The position numbers and the translations under genes are program-made. DNA of 64,000 nt from Escherichia coli. GTDB taxonomy: Bacteria > Pseudomonadota > Gammaproteobacteria > Enterobacterales > Enterobacteriaceae. The notes below the pieces were generated by a model. The model worked only from the letters and a program-made list of their open reading frames with translations. It had not been told where the DNA came from and did not search any database. The DNA lies in the NCBI RefSeq assembly GCF_029227855.1, contig NZ_CP074356.1. One strand, given 5' to 3'. Shown here one piece after another: positions 33,285-33,605 of the stretch (position 1 is the stretch's first letter; every line of letters starts with the position of its first letter).

Positions 33285-33605
33285 GTCAGGCAAGGCTGTT
33301 ATTGCCGGATGCGGCGTGAACGCCTTATCCGACCTACACAGCACTGAACTCGTAGGCCTGATAAGACGCGCAAGCGTCGCATCAGGCAATGCTGTTATTG
33401 TCGGATGCGGCATGAACGCCTTATCCGACCTACACAGCACCGAACTCGTAGGCCTGATAAGACGCGGCAGCGTCGCATCAGGCAATGCTGTTATTGTCGG
33501 ATGCGGCGTGAGCGCCTTATCCGACCTACACACAGCACTGAACTCGTAGGCCTGATAAGACACAACAGCGTCGCATCAGGCGCTGCGGTGTATACCTGAT
33601 GCGTA
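33285..33605. repeat. BIME/REP cluster: three tandem ~105-bp units of paired REP palindromes
   Basis: Repeated gccggatgcggcgtgaacgccttatccgacctaca ... ggcctgataagacgcgcaagcgtcgcatcaggc units. Confidence 0.85.

What the first reader, a model, noticed from the sequence alone, without database searches (positions are those of the whole stretch)
33285..33605. Triplicated REP/BIME unit between pepA and holC
Three tandem, near-identical units of about 105 bp, each with two REP palindromes, fill the pepA-holC spacer and generate short spurious ORFs on both strands (for example 33264-33563). This is an ordinary feature of enterobacterial genomes but the copy number here may vary between strains.
Basis: partly seen in the sequence, partly recalled or inferred. 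Interest (0 to 1): 0.2.

Follow-up and report, generated by a model that had tools for sequence, protein, structure and literature searches.

The report
Three-unit BIME-2 REP array after pepA
The spacer between the E. coli genes pepA and holC holds three tandem 96-bp copies of a well-known pair of palindromic repeats (a BIME-2 element); it is an ordinary, already described kind of sequence whose copy number runs from none to four between strains.

Summary
Window 33283-33603 holds three head-to-tail units, but the period is 96 bp (96, 96, 98), not about 105. Each unit is a y-type REP plus an inverted z2-type REP, joined by linkers of 14-16 nt and 12 nt that are specific to this locus. That is the definition of a BIME-2 element.

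It is not CRISPR-like, because the linkers repeat along with the palindromes. The repeat-derived ORFs show no sign of coding.

Copy number does vary. Across 5,426 complete E. coli genomes, about half of those sampled have three units, about 21% two and about 8% one (mostly K-12 lab strains). Strain E105 has four. 1,401 genomes (25.8%) carry an unrelated 103-bp palindromic segment instead. The alleles are exact gains or losses of whole units. E. albertii carries the same array.

Rfam calls two units naRNA4, but on the strand antisense to pepA and holC. That match reflects shared BIME-2 sequence, not an sRNA gene.

The likely function is inferred from the experimentally studied REP325 array: a run of stable RNA hairpins in the pepA 3' UTR that protect pepA mRNA and reduce read-through into holC-valS, with DNA gyrase binding at the DNA level.

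Verdict: an already known kind of element, of low interest.

The parts
31769..33280 (+). pepA (leucyl aminopeptidase, 503 aa), the upstream gene. The array lies in its 3' untranslated region.
   Evidence: ORF. Genomes 100% identical over this stretch annotate it as pepA.
33283..33303 (+). Remnant of the right arm of a z2 REP (GCGTCAGGC, 33283-33291), followed by the first copy of the 12-nt linker (AAGGCTGTTATT, 33292-33303). The array starts part-way through a unit, 2 nt after the pepA stop codon.
   Evidence: Pattern locations. Register of the repeat.
33304..33337 (+). y-type REP, copy 1 (GCCGGATGCGGCGTGAACGCCTTATCCGACCTAC), with CTAC at its 3' end on this strand.
   Evidence: Hairpin -15.3 kcal/mol, z = -3.45.
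33352..33387 (+). z2-type REP, copy 1, in inverted orientation (GTAGGCCTGATAAGACGCGCAAGCGTCGCATCAGGC). Its complement is identical to the z2 motif of REP325.
   Evidence: Hairpin -21.9 kcal/mol, z = -5.17.
33400..33433 (+). y-type REP, copy 2.
   Evidence: Hairpin -17.4 kcal/mol, z = -4.69.
33448..33483 (+). z2-type REP, copy 2.
   Evidence: Hairpin -21.9 kcal/mol, z = -5.19.
33496..33529 (+). y-type REP, copy 3.
   Evidence: Hairpin -19.2 kcal/mol, z = -4.36.
33546..33581 (+). z2-type REP, copy 3. Its centre has degenerated (GACACAACAGCGTC). The same copy is present in K-12.
   Evidence: Hairpin -15.9 kcal/mol, z = -3.61.
33572..33603 (+). Terminal hairpin (CGCATCAGG...CCTGATGCG). It reuses the right arm of z2 copy 3, so the two structures cannot form together. 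It is followed by TATTTAAAT and is probably a truncated further z REP. It is present in the 1-, 2-, 3- and 4-unit alleles of this haplotype (K-12, L002, L007, window, E105), slightly altered in L039 and E. albertii, and degraded in the divergent L004 allele.
   Evidence: Hairpin -17.1 kcal/mol, z = -2.53.
33604..33633 (+). Non-repeat segment TATTTAAATCCACCACAAGAAGCCCCATAT, directly upstream of the holC start codon. It is conserved from Escherichia to Klebsiella, Enterobacter and Citrobacter. It presumably contains the holC ribosome-binding region and the U-rich tail that follows whichever hairpin occupies the slot.
   Evidence: Spacer alignments by eye.
33634..34077 (+). holC (DNA polymerase III chi subunit, 147 aa), the downstream gene. 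valS follows at 34077-36932.
33355..33526 (-). Two Rfam naRNA4 (RF02564) matches above the gathering score, at 33355-33430 and 33451-33526. Each spans a z2, the 12-nt linker and a y. They are the same DNA as the units above, read on the strand that corresponds to the transcribed strand of REP325.
   Evidence: 82.2 and 77.9 bits against a gathering score of 59.5; the + strand scores 51.9 and 55.7. Orientation analysis.

Best explanation
This is a BIME-2 element: three tandem 96-bp units, each made of a y REP and an inverted z2 REP with short linkers specific to this locus, sitting in the 3' UTR of pepA just upstream of holC-valS.

Shown here:
- Its identity as a BIME-2 element.
- Its growth and shrinkage in place by gain and loss of whole units in register. 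The observed arrays are u1/u3 hybrid, u1-u3, u1-u2-u3 and u1-u2-u2-u3.
- Selection or templating that preserves the hairpin stems.

Inferred, by analogy with the experimentally studied BIME-2 array REP325 and the older BIME literature:
- When pepA is transcribed, the six or seven stable RNA hairpins act as a series of leaky roadblocks. They protect pepA mRNA from 3'-to-5' exonucleases.
- They also attenuate read-through into holC-valS, partly through Rho.
- The double-stranded y REPs are preferred binding and cleavage sites for DNA gyrase.
- Unit number changes by unequal recombination or replication slippage between the 96-bp direct repeats, possibly helped by the REP-associated transposase TnpA-REP.

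I put identity at about 0.97, the in-place amplification mechanism at about 0.85, and the hairpin stabiliser/attenuator function at this particular locus at about 0.5.
For: Identity:
- Period 96, 3.1 copies, 93% matches.
- Three y and three z2 palindromes, all with GTAG/CTAC and the two-base bubble.
- The z2 of unit 1 is identical to the REP325 z2, and the y differs from the REP325 y at 2 positions.
- This fits the BIME-2 definition in PMC3333891: y plus z2, tandem copies, short linkers, copies at one locus well conserved, number variable between strains.

In-place dynamics:
- The linkers are shared by all units here but are unrelated to those of REP325.
- L002 equals window units 1 and 3 with 0 differences. 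K-12 has the y of unit 1 and the z2 of unit 3.
- Strain E105 has units 1-2-2-3, with the extra unit identical to unit 2.
- Units are more alike within arrays than between lineages in L039, L004 and E. albertii.

Structural constraint:
- 8 of 46 paired columns vary against 19 of 44 unpaired columns, Fisher p = 0.011.
- Unit 1 has GCCGGAT...ATCCGAC (C opposite A), while units 2 and 3 have GTCGGAT...ATCCGAC, which pairs.

Function by analogy:
- Each hairpin folds at -15 to -22 kcal/mol and the whole spacer at z = -9.85.
- REP325 removal raises downstream yjdN about 8-10 fold and lowers upstream yjdM. The effect is partly Rho-dependent, and transcripts end as a ladder within the array (bioRxiv 10.64898/2026.03.23.713779).
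- Gyrase cleavage sites are over-represented in BIME-2, mainly in y REPs (PMC6379681).
- In the outgroup spacers printed, a GC-rich hairpin or REP-like palindrome of one kind or another precedes the conserved CATTTAAAT motif in nearly every case. The REP-less E. coli allele also folds strongly (-44.4 kcal/mol, z = -5.74).
Against: - No transcript, half-life, Rho or gyrase data exist here for this locus. Every functional step is by analogy.
- The array is inverted relative to REP325 with respect to the flanking genes, and orientation effects are untested.
- The 2026 preprint stresses that REP effects depend strongly on context and that REP-terminal genes do not have longer half-lives in general.
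- The simple scan finds neither an intrinsic terminator nor a sigma-70 promoter in 33100-33800, so it is not known how holC is transcribed.
- 26% of E. coli genomes do without the array altogether and K-12 has one unit. Copy number therefore cannot be under strong constraint, and the array could be largely neutral.
Confidence: 0.85

Rival explanations
1. The units are genes for naRNA4-like small RNAs (nucleoid-associated RNAs that bind HU and bridge cruciform DNA), as the Rfam annotation would suggest.
For: Two matches to Rfam RF02564 exceed the gathering score, at 82.2 and 77.9 bits against 59.5. Qian et al. 2015 reported that naRNA4 from REP325 binds HU and condenses DNA (PMC4550694).
Against: - The passing matches lie on the minus strand, antisense to pepA, holC and valS. 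No promoter-like site was found on either strand.
- The + strand, which pepA read-through would produce, scores below the threshold at 51.9 and 55.7 bits.
- The model was built from a BIME-2 unit, so any y-linker-z2 unit will match it. A third match lies at 60402-60479.
- The 2026 preprint from laboratories that include the original one found no measurable effect of REP325 or naRNA4 on nucleoid volume or on REP-REP contacts.
Confidence: 0.07
2. The array has no host function. It is a neutral or selfish by-product of REP proliferation (TnpA-REP activity plus slippage or unequal recombination), tolerated because the spacer is free to vary.
For: - 0 to 4 units and a completely different filler all coexist in E. 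coli.
- K-12 grows normally with one unit.
- The slot holds different repeat families in different genera.
- TnpA-REP cleaves and recombines BIMEs in vitro (PMC3333891).
Against: - Stems are conserved relative to loops and linkers. Templated copying could also produce this pattern.
- Nearly every genus examined keeps some stable hairpin immediately before the conserved TATTTAAAT motif, which suggests the hairpin itself is wanted.
- REP325 has strong measured effects on both neighbouring genes.
Confidence: 0.3
3. It is a CRISPR-like repeat-spacer array.
For: Only the superficial look of regularly spaced palindromes.
Against: - The whole 96-bp period is repeated at 93% identity, including both linkers. 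There are no unique spacers.
- Two different palindromes alternate in opposite orientation.
- The same palindromes are dispersed genome-wide.
- The neighbours are lptF, pepA, holC and valS, not cas genes.
Confidence: 0
4. One of the ORFs across the array (for example 33264-33563 on the minus strand, 99 aa) encodes a real repetitive protein.
For: The ORFs are long for intergenic DNA, because 96 bp equals 32 codons.
Against: - No Pfam match below E = 0.01, and none near a curated cut-off.
- No CDS is annotated there in RefSeq genomes.
- The ORF length changes with unit number, and the array is missing from 26% of genomes.
- Variable sites fall 13/6/9 over codon positions, with no excess at the third position, and they track hairpin structure instead.
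Confidence: 0.01

Closest known systems
BIME-2 (bacterial interspersed mosaic element, family 2) of E. coli, as defined by Gilson, Bachellier and Hofnung and restated by Ton-Hoang et al. 2012 (PMC3333891)
   Same: y and z2 REPs in alternating orientation, a GTAG/CTAC tetranucleotide, a two-base stem bubble, short linkers, tandem copies that are nearly identical at one locus, copy number that differs between strains, and an extragenic position between genes transcribed in the same direction.
   Different: Nothing of substance; this is a member. I did not map the linkers onto the historical S/s/l/r motif names.
REP325 / naRNA1-6 array between yjdM and yjdN of E. coli K-12 (Qian et al. 2015, PMC4550694; Harris et al. 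2026, bioRxiv 10.64898/2026.03.23.713779)
   Same: The same y-linker-z2-linker plan. The z2 is identical and the y differs at 2 positions. The periods are similar (100 against 96 bp). Both lie between two co-directional genes, and both match Rfam RF02564.
   Different: REP325 has six units against three here. Its linkers are unrelated in sequence (13 and 17 nt against 12 and 14-16 nt). The pepA-holC array is inverted relative to the direction of flanking transcription, so read-through RNA carries the complement of the naRNA sequence.
The REP-less allele's palindromic element, with CCCTCACCCTAACCCTCTCCC...GGGAGAGGG at its core. From memory it resembles the 'Box C' repeat family of E. coli.
   Same: It occupies exactly the same slot, between the pepA stop codon and TATTTAAATCC, in 25.8% of E. 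coli genomes. It is also dispersed (median 12 places per genome), also folds into a strong hairpin, and is also found tandemly amplified in the same slot in Pseudocitrobacter faecalis (L036).
   Different: Its sequence is unrelated to REPs and it has no GTAG/CTAC. The Box C name could not be verified with the library.

Membership tests
E. coli REP (y and z2 classes) | An imperfect palindrome of 30-40 nt that can form a hairpin | tested here: met
   Six palindromes of 34 nt (y) and 36 nt (z2). Inverted repeats I6 and I8-I11. RNA hairpins at -15.3 to -21.9 kcal/mol, z from -3.45 to -5.19.
E. coli REP (y and z2 classes) | A conserved GTAG tetranucleotide 5' of the palindrome foot (CTAC on the complement) | tested here: met
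   All three y copies end in CCTAC and all three z2 copies begin with GTAGG. The criterion comes from PMC3333891.
E. coli REP (y and z2 classes) | A two-base mismatch (bubble) in the stem, which TnpA-REP needs for binding | tested here: met
   In y, GC lies opposite TT (GGATGCGG / CCTTATCC). In z2, AA lies opposite GC. The bubbles show as unpaired positions in the folds, and the 8 bubble columns are invariant across 17 units.
E. coli REP (y and z2 classes) | An extragenic, high-copy, dispersed family | tested here: met
   The array lies between the pepA stop codon and the holC start codon. The query hits a median of 36 places per genome, held down by the tool's piece limit. Further REPs lie at about 29180, 47174-47265, 57144-57230 and 60381-60480 in the window.
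BIME-2 | Made of y and z2 REPs (not z1) in inverse orientation | tested here: met
   The window z2 of unit 1 is identical to the motif labelled Z2 in REP325 by Qian et al. 2015. The order is y (iREP) - linker - z2 (REP) - linker.
BIME-2 | Short linkers, with no long L motif carrying an IHF site (which would make it BIME-1) | tested here: met
   The linkers are 12 nt and 14-16 nt, too short for the L motif. IHF binding itself was not tested.
BIME-2 | Multiple tandem copies that are well conserved at one locus, with copy number variable between strains | tested here: met
   3.1 copies at 93% matches. Alleles with 1, 2, 3 and 4 units.
BIME-2 | Bound and cleaved by DNA gyrase in vivo | not testable with these tools
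   Only the general result is available: gyrase cleavage sites are over-represented in a subset of BIME-2 elements (PMC6379681). This locus was not looked up in that paper's supplementary tables.
naRNA4 (Rfam RF02564) | Covariance-model score at or above the gathering threshold of 59.5 bits | tested here: met
   82.2 and 77.9 bits, but only on the minus strand. The + strand scores 51.9 and 55.7 bits and fails.
naRNA4 (Rfam RF02564) | Transcribed and processed into a discrete RNA of about 77 nt that binds HU | not testable with these tools
   No promoter-like site on either strand. The matching strand is antisense to all the flanking genes.
CRISPR array | Identical repeats separated by unique spacers of similar length | tested here: not met
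   The sequences between palindromes are themselves repeated. AATGCTGTTATT occurs twice, plus a 1-mismatch copy ahead of unit 1. ACAGCAC[C/T]GAACTC occurs three times, and the third copy is preceded by an extra AC.
Intrinsic (Rho-independent) terminator | A GC-rich hairpin followed directly by a run of U | tested here: not met
   The scan finds none in 33100-33800. The terminal hairpin at 33572-33603 is followed by UAUUUAAAU, which is only a weak U tract.

The most novel reading that the evidence does not exclude
The pepA-holC spacer may be a conserved 'hairpin slot'. Its right edge (TATTTAAATCCACCACAAGAAGCCCCATAT) is fixed across Enterobacteriaceae, while the filler is swapped between unrelated palindromic repeat families and amplified or contracted in whole units. 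Under this reading, the natural series of 0, 1, 2, 3 and 4 units in E. coli acts as a stepwise dial. It would set how much pepA transcription reads through into holC and the essential valS, and how stable pepA mRNA is. That would make this locus a ready-made natural test of dose-dependent REP regulation.
Probability: 0.2. Interest if true: 0.3.

Novelty: already known. Interest (0 to 1): 0.1.

Why it matters
It matters little as a discovery. BIME-2 arrays and their variation in copy number between strains have been described since the 1990s.

There are three practical points:
1. Annotation pipelines should not call the 46-99 aa ORFs across this array.
2. Rfam-based annotation will label two units as naRNA4 sRNA genes on the antisense strand, which is misleading.
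3. The locus offers a clean natural allelic series, built from exactly the same units, that could be used to test the recent proposal that REP arrays are tunable 3' UTR terminator-stabilisers. K-12, the usual reference, carries a minority one-unit allele.

Tried and rejected
- I looked for a curated REP feature in the MG1655 record. The feature table returned for NC_000913.3 4483000-4487000 lists only CDSs, so no official REP number could be quoted.
- A flanks-only megablast seemed to show a fifth class of 320 genomes in which only the holC flank matched. This is a search artefact. Those genomes (L007, L008) have a two-unit allele next to a pepA 3' end with 10 scattered substitutions in 150 bp, so the longest exact word is 26 bases, below megablast's 28.
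- The literature search for this specific spacer returned nothing relevant.
- I tried to confirm that the filler in the REP-less allele is 'Box C'. The library gave nothing, so that name rests on memory only.
- Promoter and terminator consensus scans found nothing in the spacer.
- Pfam scans of three repeat-derived ORFs gave only chance-level matches.
- CRISPR, protein-coding and independent-sRNA readings were considered and rejected. The reasons are given under the rival explanations.
- I did not run the large protein-database searches or structure prediction on the spurious ORFs, because the cost was not justified.

Full report
**What is in the sequence**

The window around the finding carries three co-directional genes on the + strand: pepA (31769-33280, 503 aa), holC (33634-34077, 147 aa) and valS (34077-36932). 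Complete E. coli genomes that are 100% identical over 33081-33833 annotate the first two as leucyl aminopeptidase and DNA polymerase III subunit chi.

The 353-bp spacer is almost wholly repetitive. Tandem Repeats Finder reports one array at 33286-33581, with period 96, 3.1 copies, 93% matches and score 504. The repeat finder puts three copies in register at 33283, 33379 and 33475. The third unit is 98 bp because of an extra AC.

**Anatomy**

Each unit has four parts:
- a 34-nt palindrome, GCCGGATGCGGCGTGAACGCCTTATCCGACCTAC;
- a 14-16-nt linker, ACAGCACTGAACTC;
- a 36-nt palindrome in the opposite orientation, GTAGGCCTGATAAGACGCGCAAGCGTCGCATCAGGC;
- a 12-nt linker, AATGCTGTTATT.

The array begins part-way through a unit, 2 nt after the pepA stop codon, with the right arm of a truncated second-type palindrome (33283-33291). 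It ends in an extra hairpin (33572-33603) that reuses the right arm of the last palindrome. A 30-bp non-repeat segment (33604-33633) then runs up to the holC ATG.

Every palindrome carries the GTAG/CTAC tetranucleotide and a two-base bubble in the stem. As RNA the six hairpins fold at -15.3 to -21.9 kcal/mol, with z-scores of -3.45 to -5.19. The whole spacer folds at -162.8 kcal/mol against -111.8 +/- 5.2 for shuffles (z = -9.85).

**Family**

Ton-Hoang et al. 2012 (PMC3333891) restate the accepted definitions. E. coli REPs are imperfect palindromes of 30-40 nt with a conserved GTAG 5' of the foot, and they fall into classes y, z1 and z2. BIME-2 elements consist of z2 and y REPs in inverse orientation with short linkers, and they occur as tandem copies. 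Linkers differ between loci, while copies at one locus are well conserved. The number of copies at a given locus varies between strains.

I compared the window directly with the reference BIME-2 array REP325, which lies between yjdM and yjdN in MG1655 (L006). The window's second palindrome in unit 1 is identical to the motif that Qian et al. 2015 call Z2. The first palindrome differs from their Y at two positions.

The linkers of the two loci are unrelated. Those here are 12 and 14-16 nt; those of REP325 are 13 and 17 nt. Every defining feature of REP and of BIME-2 that sequence can test is therefore met.

**The Rfam match**

A scan against Rfam gives two matches to naRNA4 (RF02564) above the gathering score of 59.5 bits: 82.2 bits at 33355-33430 and 77.9 bits at 33451-33526. 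Both lie on the minus strand. The same stretches on the + strand score 51.9 and 55.7 bits and fail.

Orientation explains this. The transcribed strand of REP325 reads y(GTAG...)-linker-z2(...CTAC)-linker, and that corresponds to the minus strand here. Relative to the flanking genes, the pepA-holC array is therefore inverted compared with REP325.

The model is simply a BIME-2 unit, and it also hits another BIME at 60402-60479. No promoter-like site was found on either strand. I read these matches as shared DNA family, not as evidence of an sRNA gene.

In addition, the 2026 preprint by Harris et al. (bioRxiv 10.64898/2026.03.23.713779) reports that REP325 and naRNA4 do not measurably compact the nucleoid.

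**Copy number between strains**

The spacer exists in several forms:
- three units, 353 bp (the window);
- two units, 257-260 bp (L002, L004, L007);
- one unit, 159 bp (K-12 BW25113, L001);
- no REP at all, 133 bp (L003), where an unrelated segment replaces the array.

To sample without bias I searched with the two flanks joined (150 bp of the pepA end plus 150 bp of the holC start) and read the span of each hit. Pooling that systematic sample of 60 with the 39 chromosomal rows gives 99 genomes:

| Allele | Genomes (of 99) |
|---|---|
| Three units | 48 |
| Two units | 21 |
| One unit | 8, nearly all K-12 laboratory derivatives |
| REP-less | 22 |

Exact counts agree with this. 4,008 of 5,425 genomes cover at least 80% of the three-unit query, and 1,401 of 5,426 hold the full REP-less segment.

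A search seeded with a four-unit array found strain E105, which has a 449-bp spacer.

One apparent extra class, 320 genomes in which only the holC flank matched, is a megablast word-size artefact. It sits next to a diverged pepA 3' end, and those genomes carry two units.

**How the array changes**

The alleles are built from the same units:
- L002 equals window units 1 and 3, with 0 differences.
- K-12's single unit has the y of unit 1 and the z2 of unit 3.
- E105 reads 1-2-2-3, and its extra unit is identical to unit 2.

These are exact, in-register gains and losses of 96-bp units. That is the pattern expected from unequal recombination or replication slippage between direct repeats. TnpA-REP-catalysed strand exchange, shown in vitro by Ton-Hoang et al., is a possible contributor, but I could not test it.

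In three more diverged arrays, units resemble their array-mates more than they resemble units elsewhere. Those arrays are L039 (a genome labelled E. coli but only 94-95% identical to the window, with four units), L004 and E. albertii (three units). This pattern indicates continuing local amplification or homogenisation.

E. albertii shares the linkers specific to this locus. The array therefore predates the split of the two species, or has crossed between them.

**Constraint: structural, not coding**

Across 17 aligned units, 8 of 46 paired stem columns vary against 19 of 44 unpaired columns (loops, linkers and bubbles), Fisher p = 0.011. The eight bubble columns are invariant.

Unit 1 has GCCGGAT...ATCCGAC, with C opposite A. 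Units 2 and 3 have GTCGGAT...ATCCGAC, which pairs.

Variable sites fall 13/6/9 over the three codon positions of the long ORFs, with no excess at the third position.

The ORFs of 99, 77, 64 and 46 aa exist only because 96 bp is 32 codons, which keeps frames open from unit to unit. They have no significant Pfam match. RefSeq annotates no CDS there in any row returned. The array is absent from a quarter of genomes.

The CRISPR alternative fails as well, because the sequences between palindromes are themselves repeated.

**Wider context**

A degenerate-pattern scan of one genome per species returned 120 loci, nearly all from Enterobacterales. pepA and holC are adjacent wherever both fell inside the locus held. 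The spacer is usually 60-160 bp.

The last 30 bp or so before holC are conserved from Escherichia to Klebsiella, Enterobacter and Citrobacter. The DNA between the pepA stop codon and that segment is filled differently in each lineage:
- Citrobacter, Klebsiella, Enterobacter and Kluyvera have one or two REP-like hairpins of their own types.
- Pseudocitrobacter and one unnamed Enterobacteriaceae genome have CCCTCTCCC...GGGAGAGGG elements, amplified three to four times in tandem in P. faecalis.
- The REP-less allele of E. coli has a similar element.

That E. coli segment is partly a dispersed repeat, with a median of 12 places per genome, and it folds strongly (-44.4 kcal/mol, z = -5.74). From memory it resembles the Box C family, but I could not verify that.

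In nearly all of the outgroup spacers printed, a stable GC-rich hairpin or palindrome sits just before the conserved TATTTAAAT. This is the best indirect hint that a hairpin at the end of pepA is useful, whatever its sequence.

**Likely function (inferred)**

No data for this locus were found. The nearest experimental model is REP325:
- Removing it raises the downstream gene about 8-10 fold.
- Removing it lowers the upstream transcript about 3-fold at the native locus, and far more when the operon is overexpressed.
- The attenuation is partly Rho-dependent.
- Transcripts end as a ladder within the array.

[quoted passage not shown] Gyrase cleavage sites are over-represented in BIME-2 elements, mainly in y REPs (PMC6379681).

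By analogy, the pepA-holC array most likely acts in three ways: as a row of leaky roadblocks that protect pepA mRNA, as an attenuator of read-through into holC-valS, and as a gyrase site. I put this at about 0.5 for this locus, for three reasons. The array is inverted relative to REP325, REP effects depend on context, and E. coli tolerates anything from none to four units.

**Verdict**

This is an already known kind of element behaving as the literature describes. Interest is low. The allelic series (hybrid, 1-3, 1-2-3, 1-2-2-3, plus a REP-less filler) is a tidy illustration and a possible experimental resource, not a discovery.

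Noticed in passing
L003:501-633, replacing window 33281-33603: In 1,401 of 5,426 complete E. coli genomes the whole BIME-2 array is replaced by an unrelated 103-bp segment (GTTTGCGTTTTACCCTCACCCTAACCCTCTCCCTAAGGGAGAGGG...). Part of that segment is itself a dispersed repeat (median 12 places per genome), and it folds at -44.4 kcal/mol. It may be the 'Box C' family, but that name is from memory and was not verified.
   Followed up: partly
window 33604-33633: The 30 bp before the holC start codon (TATTTAAATCCACCACAAGAAGCCCCATAT) are nearly invariant from Escherichia to Citrobacter, Klebsiella, Kluyvera and Enterobacter, while everything upstream of it in the spacer is replaced. It probably holds the holC ribosome-binding region and perhaps a non-consensus promoter or a terminator tail. 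The scan found no sigma-70 consensus there.
   Followed up: partly
L036 (Pseudocitrobacter faecalis), pepA-holC spacer of 286 bp: A different palindromic element (CCCCTCTCCCTGAGGAAGAGGG plus about 40 nt) is tandemly repeated three to four times in the same slot. Tandem amplification at this position is therefore not peculiar to REPs.
   Followed up: no
L007:1097-1246 and L008 (E. coli STIN_95 and O2:H6 PG20180057): About 6% of E. coli genomes (320 of 5,425) did not match the 150-bp pepA flank in megablast. In the two examined (L007, L008) this is because 10 scattered substitutions leave no exact word of 28 bases; both carry a distinct two-unit array. It looks like a recombination tract, and it also produced a false 'missing flank' class.
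   Followed up: yes
L129:245-510 (E. coli WB61): A strain-specific tandem duplication of 122 bp covers the end of the REP-less spacer and the first 42 nt of holC, leaving a truncated extra holC start upstream of the annotated gene.
   Followed up: partly
window 32327-32521 (-): An Rfam match to Ysr276 (Yersinia antisense sRNA, 184.9 bits) lies wholly inside the pepA coding sequence on the opposite strand. It may only reflect conservation of the pepA coding sequence.
   Followed up: no
window 21685-21801 (+), 24328-24414 (+), 26233-26314 (-): An ALIL pseudoknot (the frameshift signal of IS3-family elements), a group II intron catalytic domain and a tRNA gene lie within 5 kb of each other. This suggests a cluster of mobile elements next to a tRNA.
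   Followed up: no
window 50111-50226 (-): A magnesium riboswitch (RF01056, 125.8 bits), presumably the mgtA leader.
   Followed up: no
window about 29180, 47174-47265, 57144-57230, 60381-60480: Four further REP/BIME sites lie in the window. The one at 60402-60479 (-) also passes the Rfam naRNA4 threshold (79.5 bits), which shows that the model reports BIME-2 units in general.
   Followed up: partly
L039 (NZ_JAATUR010000006.1, labelled E. coli SCPM-O-B-8794): This genome is only 93.6-95.5% identical to the window across pepA-holC-valS, about as distant as E. albertii. It is probably a cryptic Escherichia lineage deposited under the E. coli name. It carries a four-unit array whose first and fourth units are identical.
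   Followed up: partly
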